Part shown: in pieces, positions 281-22,454 of the stretch
Numbering within the stretch: position 1 is the first letter of the stretch
Layout: every line of letters starts with the position of its first letter
Notes under the pieces: generated by a model
The model's input: the letters and a program-made list of their open reading frames with translations, nothing else
What the model was told of the DNA's origin: nothing
The model's database searches: none
DNA from: Octopus sinensis
Lineage: Eukaryota
Length of the DNA stretch: 28,765 nucleotides
Direction: 5' to 3'
Assembly (NCBI RefSeq): GCF_006345805.1
Contig: NW_021833555.1
Coordinates: 1-28,765 of the forward strand
Translations under genes and position numbers: made by a program

Positions 281-281
<1 letters not shown>

Positions 282-760
282 AAATAAGAAAATGGAGAAA
301 TACATCTAAATCAATTATCAACTACCAGATAATATCCAATCACATAATTTATTAAACCACTACATATGAACATTAAGGTCAAACATATTATATTATATTT
401 ATATTTTTTATATTCTCTATACATACTGTACTTATTGTACCATATTACTCCTTCATGTACAATGTTTTGTTCTATATTAATATGTTTGACCTTAATGTTC
501 ATATGTAGTGGTTTAATAAATTATGTGATTGGGTATTATCTGGTAGTTGATAATTGATTTAGATGTATTTCTCCATTTTCTTATTTTCTATTATTAATTT
601 GTGGTAAAACAGTTTACCTTCGTTCATATAATACAGTAAATGAATTAATTGCATCACAATTCCTAACATTTATGTACTAACTTTGTTGGGTACTTCACTA
701 GCAGTATATTGGATATATGTTATCCCATGGAGGGTTGCATTTACAACCCCTATCTCAATT

Positions 761-772
<12 letters not shown>
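281..772 (+). mobile_element. Penelope-like terminal-repeat (pLTR-like) fragment with a 110-bp inverted duplication, between (TA)n tracts
   Basis: Arms 281-390 and 478-587 are reverse complements with 1 mismatch and an 87-bp spacer. 478-772 is a diverged reverse-complement homolog of 5737-6020 (e.g. tatcccatggagggttgcatttacaacccctatctca vs tgagataggggttgaaaattcaacccaccatgggata). The Penelope assignment is inferred from the architecture. Confidence 0.6.
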
Positions 773-4058: not shown

Positions 4059-4938
4059 CAGGGTGTGATGAGTAAATTGTAATCACTTTATATTTTTTTG
4101 GTTTCACGCATGCGTATTGTTTATTCTTCATTTAGTCGACTACACAGTATAGTAGGGTTAGTTGGGCACCGTCTTTCAGAATAACAGCACCATGACGCAA
4201 TTCACTCTGCCAAAAATTTGGAAACGGCATGCTGTAGTGTTTGACATTCGCGCCGGAAGCTATAATACGAACATATAAGAGTGTTTGGGTGTGAATCTGA
4301 GGGCAGTGCAATCTGAGGAGATGTACAGAGACTGATAAAAAGCAAACAACTAGTCAAAATCATGGTGTTTGGAGTGATACCTAGTGATAGTGATGTTATG
4401 CCTCCATTTTTCTATCCACACGGTCTCACACTCAACACGGGCACCTACATCAAGTGTCTGGATGAGGTAGTGTTGTTCTGGGTCAAAGGGGTGGCTGCTG
4501 GAAGACCCTATGCCTGGCAACAAAACTCTGTACCATGCCACACAAGCGGGAAAACCCAGTCATGGCTGTCAGACAATTTCTTCGACCATATCACCCCTAA
4601 CATCTGCCCACCTAACTCCCCAGACTGCAACCTCCTTGATTATTATGTGAGGGGCGTAGTTTAGCGTGAGGCCAACAAAACTCCTTGTAACACCAAAGAT
4701 GAACCGAAGGCAAGGTTTGCGACAAAATTCCCCAACTTAAACAAGAAAACCTTTCCAGAAGAGTTGCATGAGATTCCGAAATCGTCTGGAAGCCAATGGC
4801 GATTTTATTGAATAACTTTACTTTTTAGTATTTCAAGTTATTTCTATGTATTTTTTGTAAATATGTATGTTAAAATAAAATGTCACTGTAATTTTAATTT
4901 TTGCGTAATTTAGACGACAGCTTATTTACGGTACTCTG
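4059..4938 (+). mobile_element. Tc1/mariner superfamily transposon, DD37D (maT-type), internally deleted and inactive
   Basis: TA on both sides (4057-58, 4939-40) and degenerate TIRs cagggtg.../...tactctg. N-terminal start MTQFTLPKIWKRHAVV at 4192 has a premature stop; the catalytic-domain ORF is 4362-4664. Confidence 0.85.
4362..4664 (+). pseudogene. DD37D transposase catalytic-domain remnant
   Basis: WQQNSVPCHTS...PPNSPDCNLLDY corresponds to QQD-x37-D with the second Asp mutated to Asn; 37 residues counted between N and the final D. Confidence 0.85.
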
Positions 4939-4940
4939 TA

Positions 4941-5214
4941 TACTTCGTTTATGAATCTCGTTTGCAAGACTCTTTATATTAATTATTGTGTTGAAACAAA
5001 TTTTGTTGTTATCTAGGTAGAGTCATGCTGCTTTAATAAATTATTATTTATTAATTAAAGAATTGACAACAATATCTTACAGCTGTTTCAATTCAAGACC
5101 TTCACAAATTAATTACTAAGATTGAAAATTATTTGAAAGTCGAATTTCGTCAGATGTAGTTTAAGATATACAAAATAGGTGTTCAATTCCTGCATCTAGA
5201 TTTTCCGGCTGCAA
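4941..5214 (-). mobile_element. Hammerhead-bearing Penelope-like short repeat
   Basis: Non-coding block ending at (TA)n and containing the HHR motif at 5071-5160. Boundaries approximate. Confidence 0.55.
5071..5160 (-). ncRNA. Type I hammerhead ribozyme motif (core boxes intact, helix I imperfect)
   Basis: Minus strand: CTGACGA (5153-5147), helix II aattc...gaatt (5146-5090), GAAAC (5089-5085), AGCT, GTA (5080-5078), then agatat. Confidence 0.7.
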
Positions 5215-5424
5215 TATATATATTATATATATATATATAATATATTATATATATGAGGAGGATGACCACTAGGTGGACATCCCTCTTATATGTATGTAAT
5301 ATAATTTTTCTGAATCTTCAGAATTTTTCAATATGCTAGGCCGCTGGTTTAAATTCATATTAATCAAATTAATATGAATTTTTAAACTTTATTATTTAAA
5401 TATATATATATATATATATATATT

Positions 5425-5713
5425 ATAGGAAAAAAGCAACAAGAATGGATTAAAATCTCGGTACAATTGTTTCGTACGAGGACATCTTTAATAAGCTAAC
5501 GAAAAATGCTACAAAAAATGTAGCTTATTAAAGATGTCCTCGTACGAAACAATTGTACCGAGATTTTAATCCATTCTTGTTGCTTTTTTCCTATTTGTAA
5601 TCACCCCACTTGTCGTATGGTTAACACCATATAGATTTCCGGTGCATCCTAGTTAAGGACTATATTCATGTGAATTCATTAGAATTCACTTGAATCTCAA
5701 TTATTTAAACCGA
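5425..5713 (+). mobile_element. Penelope-like short repeat with a perfect 74-bp inverted duplication, containing the 3' half of a hammerhead
   Basis: Arms 5425-5498 / 5521-5594 are perfect. cgtac-GAAAC-AATT-GTA-ccgagat lies at 5541-5564. Homologous to 22385-22454; flanked by (TA)n. Confidence 0.7.
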
Positions 5714-5736
5714 ATATATATATATATATATATATA

Positions 5737-6149
5737 GGTTATAAAATGAGATAGGGGTTGAAAATTCAACCCACCATGGGATAATTATATCCAATATCAT
5801 TACTGCCAGATAGGTACCCAACAAGATTAATACATAGATGTTAAAAATTGTCAAACAATCAGTTCATCTATTGTATTATATGGGTAAAGGTAATAATATT
5901 ACCGTAAATTAATACTACAAAATTAGAGAATGGAGAAACATACTTAAATTAATAAAACATCAACTATCCGATGATACCCAATCAATACTTTAATACACCA
6001 TTACATATGAGTAAAGGCATTATACAAAATGAGATATACAGTAATAATAAAAAGATAAAGAGATATAAGTAAAAAATTTCAAATATAATATGCAATTAAA
6101 TCAAAACTGACAGCTGTTTCGGTAGTGAGGGCAGTCATACCTCATTTAA

Positions 6150-6151
<2 letters not shown>
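5737..6151 (-). mobile_element. Penelope-like short repeat, 5'-truncated within a hammerhead core
   Basis: Bounded by (TA)n. Minus strand starts ggttaa-ATGA-ggtatgactgccctcactacc-GAAAC-AGCT-GTC. Homolog of 391-772. Confidence 0.6.
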
Positions 6152-12930: not shown

Positions 12931-13596
12931 GCGTAGACAAAGATATAAACGTGTGTTGGTGTGTGCACATTAGTGTGTGTGTGTGTGTGTGCAAATGAGT
13001 ATGTGTGTGTCTATCTACGTTATGTCTGTGCATATACTGTAAGATTCACCACAAAGAATTATATACTGTGATAGAGTGGATATGTGTGTATTAAACAGCT
13101 TAATAGTTTAGTTAGTCGTCCATTAAGGCACAGTTTCACCGGTAATCAATATTCAAATAACAAATATTACATTCTCCGCATGTGTATGACACCAATTTTG
13201 TGGAAAAAGATTAGGGGCATGAACAAAGAAATCTACAAGATGTTAACATCTGGATGGTTTGAAAATTGTAACTCTACTTCAAATCGATGTATGAAGCTAT
13301 ATCTCAAAAAGTTGACTGCTGCTAAATAATTTCTATAAATGCATGTCATTAAATTATAAAATTACAAAATTATTGAATACTATAAGTTATTAAGGGAGAC
13401 CAAGTATAAATTTCAAAATCTATGTTCTTCACCATAAAAATTGAATATGCGTAACAAAGTAAAAGCTCTTGTGCATGCATATATATATATATATATATGA
13501 CTATAAATGTATGTGTGTATGTATATGTATTTGTACTCATATATGCAAAGAAATTTTCCATATATATAAATATACATATATATATATATGCTCTTA

Positions 13597-13969
13597 TATT
13601 CTTTTATTTGTTTCAGTCATTTGACTGCGGCCATGCTGGAATACCGCCTTTAGTCGAACAAATCGACCCCAGGACTTATTCTCTGTAAGCCTAGTACTTA
13701 TTCTATTGGTCTCTTTCGCCGAACCGCTACATTATGGGGGCGTAAACACACCAACATCTGTTGTCAAACGATGGTGGTGGGACAAACACAGACACACAAA
13801 CATATATATACGACAGGCTTCTTTCAGTTTTCGTCTACCAAATCCACTCACAAGTGTTTGGTCAGCCCGAAGCTATAGGACAATACACTTGCCCAAGGTG
13901 CCACACAGTGGGACTGAAGCCGGAACCATGTGGTTGGTGAGCAAGCTACTTACTACACAACCGCTCCTG
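13597..13969 (-). mobile_element. SINE family A, full length
   Basis: High identity to 1722-2141. Confidence 0.9.
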
Positions 13970-16990: not shown

Positions 16991-17313
16991 AGAAGCGCGT
17001 TGCTTCGTGGCTAGGGTAATCGGCTCATGATCGTAAGGTCGTGGGTTCGATTCTCTGCAGAGCGCTTTGTCTTTGAGCAAGACAGTTTATTTCACGTTGC
17101 TTCAGTCCACTTAGCTAGCGAAAATGAGTTTTACATGTAATTCAAAAGGCCGGCCTTGTCACATTCTGTGTCGTGCTGAATCTCTCTGAGAAGTACGCTA
17201 AGGGTACGCGTGTTTGTGGAATGCTCAGCCACTTGCACGGTAATTTCACGAGCAGGCTGTTCCATTGATCGGATCAACTGGAGCCCTTGTCATCGTAATC
17301 GACGGAGTGCCAG
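16991..17313 (+). mobile_element. CORE-type tRNA SINE with tail type 2
   Basis: tRNA head (ggttcgattc), CORE-like tttgagcaagacagttt...cagtccacttagct...aaaatgagt, and a tail shared with 18720-18905. Confidence 0.85.
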
Positions 17314-18719: not shown

Positions 18720-19109
18720 TGATTGGAAGCACTCCGTCGGTTACGACGACGAGGGTTCCGGTTGATCCGAATCAACGGAACAGCCTGCTCGTGAAATTAA
18801 CGTGTAAGTGGCTGAGCACTCCACAGACACGTGTACCCTTAACGTAGTTCTCGGGGATATTCAGCGTGACACAGAGAGTGACAAGGCCGACCCTTTGAAA
18901 TACAGGTACAACAGAAACAGGAAGTAAGAGTGAGAGAAAGTTGTGGTGAAAGAGTACAGCAGGGATCACCACCATCCCCTGCCGGAGCCTCGTGGAGCTT
19001 TAGGTGTTTTCGCTCAATAAACACTCACAACGCCCGGTCTGGGAATCGAAACCGCAATCCTATGACCGCGAGTCCGCTGCCCTAACCACTGGGCCATTGC
19101 GCCTCCACC
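18720..19109 (-). mobile_element. tRNA(Arg)-like SINE family B, tail type 2, full length with perfect 12-bp TSD
   Basis: TSD atatatgtttat at 18708-19 / 19110-21. Head shared with the 16221 copy, tail shared with the 16991 copy. Confidence 0.92.
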
Positions 19110-21067: not shown

Positions 21068-21475
21068 AGGTGCAGGAGTGGCTGTGTGGTAAGTAGCTTG
21101 CTTGCCAACCACATGATTCCGGGTTCAGTCCCACTGCGTGGCACCTTGGGCGAGTGTTTTCTACTATAGCCTCGGGCCGACCAAATTCTCGTCACTGGAT
21201 TTGGTAGACGGAAACTGAAAAAACCCCATCGTATATATATATATATATGTATGTATGTTTGTATGTATGTTTGTGTGTCTGTGTCTGCCCCCCCCCCAAC
21301 ATCACTTGACAACCGATGCTGGTGTGTTTACGTCCCCGTAACTTAGCGGTTCGGCAAAAGAGACCGATAGAATAAGTAGTAAGTTTACAAAGAATAAGTG
21401 CTGGGGTCGATTTGCTCGACTAAAGGCGGTGCTCCAGCATGGTCGCAGTCAAATGACTGAAACAAGTAAAAGAGT
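21068..21475 (+). mobile_element. SINE family A, full length
   Basis: tRNA-like head, internal TA/TATG microsatellite, tail ...aatgactgaaacaagtaaaagag. Confidence 0.92.
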
Positions 21476-22028
21476 ATATATTTATAATTTGCTATTGTAT
21501 TCTACAGTATAAGACAGTATGAGCTGCATCAGTGTTTGACATTTTTCTTTTGTTATTGTTGTTGTTGTTGTAGTTGTTTAGCGCAGATCAGTCATAATCA
21601 AACGGATTTACGATTAAAGGTTTTTCTAGCCGTGATACTCCAATCATTTTTAGTTCATGGTATATCTATATGCTGGCTGTATGAAACCATTTCATTTATT
21701 CGGCGGGTCGTGCTACTACTACAAAAAAAGCTGGGGTGGAGAAAAGAATCAAGATGGTTTGTCGTTTGGGATCACTATTCAGAATGTCACACGGGCCGCA
21801 AACTGCATGCTACTCTTTCAAATACTGATACATAGAACTACGTAGTATCTGTCTCCCACACTGACTCACTATATCCACGGTATAAATAACTGTGTGCATG
21901 TGTGTGTTTGTGTAGTTTTATATATATACATATATACATACATATATAAAACTACACAAATACACACACACATATATATAGGTGTATCTATGTGTATATA
22001 CGTTTATATATAAGTATATGTATATGTA

Positions 22029-22076
<48 letters not shown>

Positions 22077-22079
<3 letters not shown>

Positions 22080-22454
22080 CATCGTCTGTGAGTATGAAAT
22101 CTCTCCTCATATCTCCAGAAATCAAACCTACTTCATATGGATGGATTTACATTTTCATTTTCTGTGAAACTGACAGGTTTTTAAAAATACTTATTTAAGA
22201 CCGGTTATATGACTGTGCAACATTAGAGAACTTTGGAAGTCTCTTTATTATCTAAATCTGATTTTTATAGAACTATCCCTGATGTTTCATGAGTGTAGCC
22301 TCACACCCTTAGATGTTTGGAGAACTCAGATGTGTTTTCGGCTGATGAGTACGGGTCACTTGTATTTGCTGCAATATTTTCAGCCTTAATAAAGCTGGTC
22401 TTCGTATGAACAATTGTACCGAAATACTGATCCATTTTTGTTGCTTTTTTCTTA
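22077..22454 (+). mobile_element. Hammerhead-bearing Penelope-like short repeat between (TA)n tracts
   Basis: Bounded by TA runs; its 3' 70 bp are homologous to 5521-5594. Confidence 0.65.
22336..22424 (+). ncRNA. Type I hammerhead ribozyme motif with a 1-nt deletion in the GAAA box
   Basis: tttcgg-CTGATGA(22342-48)-gtacg...cgtat-GAA-C-AATT-GTA-ccgaaa. Helix I is 6 bp; the helix II insert is 59 nt. Confidence 0.7.

What the first reader, a model, noticed from the sequence alone, without database searches (positions are those of the whole stretch)
4941..6151. Pile-up of four short non-coding modules separated by (TA)n, three carrying hammerhead motifs: candidate retrozyme-like / non-autonomous Penelope system
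Seen: modules at about 4941-5214, 5255-5400, 5425-5713 and 5737-6151 are separated by TA runs and have no ORF. Three contain GAAAC-[AGCT|AATT]-GT[A/C] hammerhead boxes despite otherwise dissimilar sequence, and relatives occur at 281-772 and 22077-22454. Established: Penelope-like elements carry minimal type I hammerheads with palindromic helix III in their pLTRs, and metazoan non-LTR retrozymes are non-coding hammerhead repeats that yield circular RNAs. Inference: several (TA)n-targeting ribozyme-bearing families repeatedly insert into the same microsatellite. Whether these particular families are already described cannot be judged from here.
Basis: partly seen in the sequence, partly recalled or inferred. 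Interest (0 to 1): 0.75.

Follow-up and report, generated by a model that had tools for sequence, protein, structure and literature searches.

The report
Stacked Penelope ends with long-armed hammerheads
This 1.2-kb stretch is a stack of broken-off ends from four families of Penelope-type jumping elements sitting in TA repeats; no piece here keeps a whole hammerhead ribozyme, but longer copies elsewhere in the genome carry a predicted self-cutting hammerhead with an unusually long arm, and one family is a protein-free 532-base repeat likely copied by its neighbours' enzyme.

Summary
The four modules are real, but they are not one system. Each is a 5'-truncated 3' end of a different high-copy family. 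M3 and M4 run directly into RT + GIY-YIG ORFs with Hydra-clade Penelope motifs; M1 does so at one decayed locus. Only M2, the module without a box, is ORF-less: a 532-nt head-to-tail, retrozyme-like unit. M2-M4 3' ends abut (TA)n (M3 29/29, M4 29/29, M2 11/19; background about 5%). Two-armed insertions carry the PLE 'tail' on exactly one arm (47/47). No hammerhead in the window is intact: M3 and M4 lost CUGANGA, M1 has a broken helix I, M2 has none. Longer copies of all four families hold complete type I cores with 41-85 nt between CUGANGA and GAAA, against 12-26 nt in published Hydra motifs. Seven further long-arm clusters turned up, and Rfam did not call the three copies I tested one by one (best 17 bits, cut-off 34). 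Cleavage and circular RNA are untested, and the long arm shows no sense-strand folding bias. This scan noted the long-arm motif and similar ORF-less units before on other DNA of this genome. Verdict: a known element class with a modestly new ribozyme variant.

The parts
4941..5032 (.). Decayed fragment of a different abundant repeat (about 80% identity); not part of family M1
   Evidence: Matches 4 flank loci at 78-81%; the same repeat occurs in 6 of 60 sampled 10-kb stretches
5033..5214 (-). M1: 3' end of an old Hydra-type PLE family, 5'-truncated and missing its last ~25 nt. Holds CUGACGA (5153-5147), a 57-nt helix II domain and GAAAC-AGCU-GUA (5089-5078); helix I is broken by mutation
   Evidence: Best relatives 84-90%; cores; family motif; inverted end joined to RT-thumb/EN remnant and 3'UTR in L239
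5214..5254 (.). (TA)n run between M1 and M2
5255..5400 (+). M2: last ~145 nt (short fold-back plus tail) of an ORF-less 532-nt head-to-tail unit; the family hammerhead lies ~130 nt upstream of what is kept here
   Evidence: L171: two cores 532 nt apart
5401..5424 (.). (TA)n run at the 3' end of M2
5426..5509 (-). M3 inverted 5' arm (tail-less), holding the mirror copy of the GAAAC-AAUU-GUA box (5473-5462)
5519..5713 (+). M3 main arm of a young Hydra-type PLE: 3' half of helix II, box 5546-5557, tail-less end at 5594, ~120-nt tail 5595-5713; CUGANGA lost by truncation
   Evidence: 98-99% to family copies; full motif in longer copies; RT/EN linkage
5714..5736 (.). (TA)n run shared tail-to-tail by M3 and M4
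5737..6151 (-). M4: 3' end of a young Hydra-type PLE (unit 5,509 nt); tail 5737-5911, box GAAAC-AGCU-GUC 6120-6109, truncated inside the 85-nt helix II, so CUGAAGA is absent
   Evidence: 96-98% to the other 39 scored copies; ORF linkage; unit with both pLTRs in L241
6152..6181 (.). (TA)n run at the truncated 5' end of M4
281..762 (+). R1: two-armed 3' end of a sister family of M4 (78-80%), tail on one arm, no hammerhead included
22077..22454 (+). R2: tail-less 3' end of an M3 relative with a decayed long-arm hammerhead (CUGAUGA at 22342, GAAA reduced to GAA)

Best explanation
The region is a stack of 5'-truncated 3' ends from four Penelope-type families in one (TA)n tract, three linked to Hydra-type RT + GIY-YIG ORFs and one ORF-less, likely laid down as four separate insertions. 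Shown: family membership, orientation, ORF linkage (M3 and M4 at many loci, M1 at one), TA at the 3' ends, one tail per two-armed insertion, and a complete long-helix-II type I hammerhead core in longer copies. Inferred mechanism: the GIY-YIG endonuclease nicks (TA)n. RT starts at one of two fixed internal sites of the RNA, giving tail-plus and tail-less ends, and mostly stalls after 150-400 nt or folds back. Each insertion leaves TA on both sides, so later elements can land beside it. M1 and M2 (about 10% diverged) likely came before M3 and M4 (1-2%). The hammerhead would cut tandem transcripts into units, probably only as a dimer, since helix III is 1-2 bp with a palindromic loop. M2's 532-nt unit would borrow a Hydra RT, possibly as a circle. 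The copies in this window are dead and cannot self-cleave as they stand.
For: ORF linkage: M4 copies extend more than 3.7 kb at 95-98% into an EN ORF, and L120 holds a 760-aa open RT-EN frame. L241 reads pLTR+HHR, ATG, ORF with one stop, 3'UTR, pLTR, (TA)n, with cores 5,509 nt apart. M3 links to EN in L129, L133, L136 and L140 and to RT in L243 and L244 (Pfam GIY-YIG E=2.4e-5; RVT_1 E=0.00095, below cut-off). M1 links in L239. Hydra motifs CxCX5C, CxxC..E and N..CxH occur in all three, and DKT in M4 (against PMC8557442 section 11, and its printed alignment). TA at 3' ends: M3 29/29, M4 29/29 (28 plus L085 re-oriented), M2 11/19, background 4-6%; M1 17/24 within 70 nt against 10%. Tail on exactly one arm: 23/23 M4-type and 24/24 M3 arm pairs. 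Complete core among distinct copies spanning the site: M1 22/43, M2 19/34, M3 32/36, M4 19/20; modal spacers 58, 41, 57 and 85 nt; median folding z -1.2, -3.1, -4.8 and -6.0, n=12 each. Descriptor hits: 154 in 945 kb against 0-1 in 3 shuffles. M2: 8 of 25 loci run upstream into the previous unit's tail, no Hydra-ORF match in 44 loci, longest ATG ORF 49 aa.
Against: No cleavage, transcript end or circular RNA was observed. M1's ORF link rests on one decayed locus, and M1's arm folds no better than shuffles (z -1.2 and 0.0). M1's 3' end in the window abuts another repeat, not TA. Only 1 of 44 M2 loci has two hammerheads in tandem, and 8 of 19 M2 ends lack a clean (TA)4. Clade placement is by motif, not by tree. 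M4 has RWR where Hydra has RWK, and its 5.5-kb unit exceeds the '<3 kb' described. Loci were mostly found with tail-containing queries, so zero-tail insertions are under-sampled. Only 4 of about 100 loci had another of these four families within 1.5 kb, so four-way stacks are uncommon. The window is a whole short unplaced contig and its junctions were not checked against reads. In an Anolis PLE, hammerhead mutants did not block insertion in vitro (PMC11167929, parts 1-2 of 4 read).
Confidence: 0.87

Rival explanations
1. One reading: all modules are non-autonomous, retrozyme-like elements with minimal hammerheads that give circular RNAs.
For: No ORF in the window modules; palindromic helix III boxes; M2 does fit.
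Against: M3, M4 and (at one locus) M1 run into RT-EN ORFs; their motifs are long-armed, not minimal; no window copy is complete.
Confidence: 0.04
2. The long helix II is a neutral by-product: these elements fold back readily while being copied, loop II tolerates insertions, and the arm has no function of its own. This competes only with a functional reading of the arm, not with the element identity.
For: Fold-backs are common in these families. Across 11 plausible long-arm clusters the sense strand folds more stably in 5 and the antisense in 6, with no consistent G-U excess. Short-armed hammerheads of other families are common in the same genome: 10 of 14 hits in 600 kb of sampled DNA.
Against: Long arms recur in 11 clusters, 7 of them with modal lengths of 53-59 nt, and most fold as rods (z -1.7 to -7.3 in 9 of 11), which is more uniform than chance insertion would suggest.
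Confidence: 0.45
3. TA-targeting DNA transposons (MITE-like) with terminal inverted repeats.
For: M3 and R1 look like inverted-repeat elements flanked by TA.
Against: Arm lengths and inner breakpoints vary copy by copy while the 3' ends are fixed, and the tail is on one arm only; long copies carry RT.
Confidence: 0.02
4. The stack is an assembly artefact joining unrelated TA-flanked reads.
For: The window is a short unplaced contig; TA runs are error-prone; no second copy of the arrangement appeared.
Against: Other loci on long contigs also show Hydra-type pieces of different families side by side, and the window holds two more such ends (R1, R2).
Confidence: 0.07

Closest known systems
Hydra clade of Penelope-like elements, incl. 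Hydra-1_Obim (Craig et al. 2021, PMC8557442; read: passages, section 11, supplement part 2 of 59, supplement search hits)
   Same: RT followed by C-terminal GIY-YIG; DKT, CxCX5C, CxxC and CxH motifs; (TA)n insertion; type I hammerhead near the 3' end; inverted 5'-truncated copy and optional tail.
   Different: Published Hydra hammerheads have 12-26 nt between CUGANGA and GAAA (26 rows counted by eye); here 41-85 nt. Unit 5.5 kb with a 2.1-kb 3'UTR and Asn-rich inserts against <3 kb; tails about 120-175 nt against 30-40. By eye the proteins are not Hydra-1_Obim. The same table lists a ~54-nt stem-loop II in a non-Hydra element (PLE-X1_sMoe), so a long loop II is not unprecedented among PLEs.
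Metazoan non-LTR retrozymes (Cervera and de la Pena 2020, PMC7229834, passages read; Li, Clavereau and Pollet 2026, 10.64898/2026.07.22.740005, part 1 of 5 and passages read)
   Same: M2: ORF-less head-to-tail unit with a type I hammerhead, low GC (32%); PLE origin already proposed in print.
   Different: 532 nt (outside 170-400, inside 51-972); 41-nt helix II domain; mostly dispersed partial copies with PLE-type inverted arms and tails rather than arrays; circular RNA not shown.
PAc (Poseidon) of Anolis (Frangieh et al. 2024, PMC11167929, parts 1-2 of 4 read)
   Same: Two internal RT start sites define the tail; AT-rich target; hammerhead in the pLTR.
   Different: Different clade; there the hammerhead overlaps the start codon and the tail lies inside the ORF, whereas in M4 the ATG lies about 500 nt after the predicted cut and the tail is 5'UTR.
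PLE minimal and palindromic-helix-III hammerheads (Cervera and de la Pena 2014, PMC4209133, passages read)
   Same: Short palindromic helix III implying dimeric action; short helix I in M4 and M1.
   Different: Helix II described there is 4-8 bp; here it is a rod of 41-85 nt.

Membership tests
Hydra-clade PLE (M1, M3, M4) | Single ORF, RT followed by C-terminal GIY-YIG | tested here: met
   M4: L120 760-aa open frame, L241; M3: L243, L244 broken frames; M1: one decayed locus L239
Hydra-clade PLE (M1, M3, M4) | CxCX5C linker | tested here: met
   CNCRNKNKC (M4; some copies CNF), CNCRIKSKC (M3), CDCKIKSNC (M1)
Hydra-clade PLE (M1, M3, M4) | CxxC before the conserved E and CxH after the conserved N of the EN | tested here: met
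   CSLC/CIH (M4), CQLC/CIH (M3), CHLC/CIH (M1; CIH read by eye from the DNA)
Hydra-clade PLE (M1, M3, M4) | DKG changed to DKT | tested here: met
   M4 only: HSDKTSN in L126; the region was not recovered for M1 or M3
Hydra-clade PLE (M1, M3, M4) | N-terminal RWK motif | tested here: inconclusive
   M4 has RIRWRIF; not recovered for M1 or M3
Hydra-clade PLE (M1, M3, M4) | CCHH motif absent from EN | tested here: inconclusive
   Not seen by eye; no alignment with canonical ENs was run
Hydra-clade PLE (M1, M3, M4) | Insertion into (TA)n | tested here: met
   M3 29/29, M4 29/29, M1 17/24
Hydra-clade PLE (M1, M3, M4) | Complete type I hammerhead core near the 3' end | tested here: met
   (family copies, not the window copies)
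Hydra-clade PLE (M1, M3, M4) | Typical but not defining traits: short stem II and length <3 kb | tested here: not met
   Spacers 57-85 nt; M4 unit 5,509 nt
Hydra-clade PLE (M1, M3, M4) | Placement in the Hydra branch of an RT tree | not tested
   Reference proteins were visible only as paper text; compared by eye
Non-LTR retrozyme (M2) | Head-to-tail units each with a type I hammerhead | tested here: met
   L171: two cores 532 nt apart; 8 of 25 loci run into the previous unit's tail; only 1 of 44 loci has two tandem motifs
Non-LTR retrozyme (M2) | No coding capacity | tested here: met
   Longest ATG ORF 49 aa; no match to M3/M4 proteins in 44 loci
Non-LTR retrozyme (M2) | Expressed as self-cleaved linear and circular RNA | not testable with these tools
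Non-LTR retrozyme (M1, M3, M4) | No coding capacity | tested here: not met
   ORF-linked
Type I hammerhead ribozyme | Core CUGANGA / GAAA / UH in a three-helix junction | tested here: met
   Family copies; RF00163 aligns to M3 at 17 bits, E=0.12, below its cut-off of 34. Not met by any window copy
Type I hammerhead ribozyme | Self-cleavage | not testable with these tools
   Needs an in vitro assay

The most novel reading that the evidence does not exclude
The long helix II is a selected, lineage-wide redesign. Hydra-type elements of this genome replaced the loop I-loop II contact with a 40-85 nt rod that works as a protein dock (for the element's own RT, or a dsRNA editor) and gates cleavage. 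ORF-less 0.5-kb circles such as M2 keep the same arm to hijack that RT. Thousands of such ribozymes would be invisible to standard searches.
Probability: 0.2. Interest if true: 0.68.

Novelty: new variant of a known kind. Interest (0 to 1): 0.4.

Why it matters
The locus itself is dead repeat debris, and its main traits (TA targeting, tail, inverted arm, hammerhead) are published for Hydra PLEs. Two things are useful. First, hammerheads with 40-85 nt helix II occur in at least 11 sequence clusters and escaped Rfam in the three copies tested singly. About 3 plausible ones per 0.6 Mb of sampled DNA suggests roughly ten thousand genome-wide, with wide error, so ribozyme counts in such genomes are probably too low. 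Second, one genome holds young autonomous Hydra families (M3, M4) and an ORF-less unit with the same end anatomy (M2). That makes the proposed PLE-retrozyme link, and the two-start model of the PLE tail, testable with defined RNAs and a nearly intact protein.

Tried and rejected
Rfam: no hammerhead among 133 window matches or among the 150 listed of 183 for five loci. Narrow scans gave RF00163 at 17 bits for M3 and no Hammerhead family for M4 or M2 (M4 had only a weak RAGATH-6 match, E=2); M1 was not scanned narrowly. RNA: no RNA holder listed on record; only contigs of runs guessed to be RNA. Contigs of 4 runs cover the M4 3' end and some span the predicted cut; contigs cannot show ends or strand, so this is no evidence either way. 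Pfam found nothing on the 760-aa M4 protein or the 115-aa frame at 4317-4661. One search covered a flanking repeat by mistake; its 20 loci served only as flank DNA. The strand-asymmetry test of the long arm was negative (5 sense, 6 antisense of 11). Four of 15 long clusters (6 of 107 hits) were dropped as chance: z of -0.3 or higher and no 8-nt palindromic helix III. EN remnants near M1 in L147, L159 and L221 did not match the L239 EN at DNA level (L159 not tested) and are treated as other families. MITE and Naiad readings were rejected (RT linkage; EN is C-terminal). Literature: five searches found no paper describing 40-85 nt helix II in Hydra PLEs; the one 'long helix II' hit refers to 6-8 bp (PMC13725137, passages). 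The library lacks most subscription papers and Repbase/Dfam, and bioRxiv supplements were not seen, so these families may already be catalogued.

Full report
Observation. The TA runs and four modules are present, and four GAAAC-palindrome-GUH boxes lie at 5089(-), 5473(-), 5546(+) and 6120(-). Shuffles give 0.0075 on average. Two of the boxes are mirror copies in the M3 fold-back. M1's family match begins at 5033; 4941-5032 belongs to another abundant repeat. A descriptor for complete type I hammerheads finds none in the window, and Rfam lists none.

Families. The window is one whole 28.8-kb contig of a 2.72-Gb animal genome. Each module is a high-copy family: first-look candidates were 1028 (M1), 1701 (M2), 2014 (M3) and 2269 (M4), 40 scored each; these are not copy numbers. 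None of the four ends occurred in 599.7 kb taken at 60 fixed round coordinates, so four within 1.2 kb is a strong local excess. The window copies are 84-90% (M1), 87-93% (M2), up to 99% (M3 main arm) and 96-98% (M4) like their best relatives, which suggests that M1 and M2 are older (inference).

ORF linkage. M4 copies extend more than 3.7 kb upstream at 95-98% into a GIY-YIG ORF. L120 has a 760-aa open RT-EN frame and L126 supplies the N-terminus with DKT. L241 holds a unit with both pLTRs: pLTR with hammerhead, tail, ATG, ORF with one stop, 2.1-kb 3'UTR, tail-less pLTR, (TA)n, 5,509 nt between cores. M3 leads through about 1.2 kb of UTR into an EN (Pfam GIY-YIG) and RT. For M1, one locus (L239) joins the inverted M1 end to a decayed RT thumb and EN followed by M1's UTR. 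All three ENs carry CxCX5C, CxxC..E and N..CxH, which with DKT and (TA)n insertion define the Hydra clade in PMC8557442. The M4 RT follows the printed Hydra alignment closely by eye but is not Hydra-1_Obim. No tree was built.

M2. Longer copies carry a complete hammerhead about 130 nt upstream of the part kept in the window. Upstream of it the sequence returns to the previous unit's tail in 8 of 25 loci, the other 17 being truncated earlier. L171 has two cores 532 nt apart. No Hydra protein match was found in 44 loci and the longest ATG ORF is 49 aa. M2 therefore works like a non-LTR retrozyme or non-autonomous PLE; circular RNA is untested.

Insertion anatomy. (TA)4 or longer follows the 3' end in 29/29 M3, 29/29 M4 (one locus re-oriented) and 11/19 M2 loci, background 4-6%; for M1, 17/24 within 70 nt against 10%. 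Two-armed insertions have the tail on exactly one arm in 23/23 M4-type (including R1) and 24/24 M3 cases; zero-tail cases are under-sampled by the queries, two-tail cases are not. This fits the two internal RT start sites shown for an Anolis PLE (PMC11167929), applied here by inference. Only 4 of about 100 loci had another of the four families within 1.5 kb, though other Hydra-type pieces often lay in flanks.

Hammerheads. Among distinct copies spanning the site, the full core is present in 22/43 (M1), 19/34 (M2), 32/36 (M3) and 19/20 (M4), with modal spacers of 58, 41, 57 and 85 nt that fold as rods (median z -1.2, -3.1, -4.8, -6.0). The four motifs share nothing beyond the core (best E 0.03). 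The descriptor gave 154 hits in 945 kb of fetched loci against 0-1 in three shuffles, and 14 in the 600 kb sample against 0-3 in ten shuffles: 10 short (12-21 nt) and 4 long, one of them likely chance. The 107 long hits fall into 15 clusters; 4 were dropped as chance, leaving my four families and seven others. Helix III is an 8-nt palindrome in most hits of 10 of these 11 clusters, a feature the descriptor did not ask for; M2 has a 7-nt near-palindrome. Pairing of helices I and II in these hits is required by the descriptor and is not independent evidence. Published Hydra hammerheads have 12-26 nt spacers (26 rows, by eye), although one non-Hydra PLE in the same table has about 54 nt. Rfam's type I model reaches only 17 bits on M3 and does not appear for M4 or M2. 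A test for sense-strand selection on the arm was negative, so a neutral fold-back origin remains as likely as a functional one.

Window copies. M1 keeps the core but helix I is broken; M3 and M4 are cut inside helix II; M2 and R1 lack the motif; R2 has lost one A of GAAA. None should cleave (inference from the established core requirements).

RNA. Only assembled contigs from runs guessed to be RNA were available, and they say nothing on cleavage.

Earlier notes. After I had stated my reading, the scan's index returned several unreviewed notes on other DNA of this genome with the same long-arm Hydra hammerhead and similar ORF-less units; none matched M2 or M4 by sequence. They agree with my results but are not independent support.

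Verdict. A stack of dead 3' ends of a known element class, with a recurrent long-arm hammerhead variant that I did not find in print in five searches, and one retrozyme-like family. New variant of a known kind; interest 0.4.

Noticed in passing
window ~4200-4940: Frame 4317-4664 resembles the DDE region of a Tc1/mariner transposase (motif recalled from memory; Pfam found nothing); it ends just before the TA at 4940-4941.
   Followed up: partly
window 4941-5032; L219:1287-1477, L158:58-249: A different abundant repeat, present in 6 of 60 sampled 10-kb stretches; identity unknown.
   Followed up: partly
L016, L029 (M3 3'UTR): The M3 3'UTR holds internal direct repeats of roughly 130-250 nt upstream of the hammerhead.
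   Followed up: no
L256, L258, L259, L262, L267, L272, L291: Minimal hammerheads (GAAAC-GU, 12-21 nt spacer) of at least two families are frequent: 8 hits in 600 kb of sampled DNA.
   Followed up: no
L239, L108, L028, L040, L055, L150, L161, L191: A fifth large long-arm cluster (53-55 nt, 12 hits) with varied palindromic helix III (ACACGTGT, ACATATGT); in L239 it lies inverted next to a second Hydra-type RT.
   Followed up: partly
L120, L243: M3 and M4 proteins carry long Asn-rich inserts between the RT thumb and the EN, unrelated between the two families.
   Followed up: no
L058 (downstream flank of an M4 copy): The flank translates like antisense large-subunit rRNA sequence (recognised from memory).
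   Followed up: no
L103, L104, L105: Three near-identical loci with shared flanks: a segmental duplication or haplotigs.
   Followed up: no
window 17128-17269 and 18771-18912; 1738-1980, 13595-13969, 21073-21478: Dispersed SINE-like repeats in inverted orientation.
   Followed up: no
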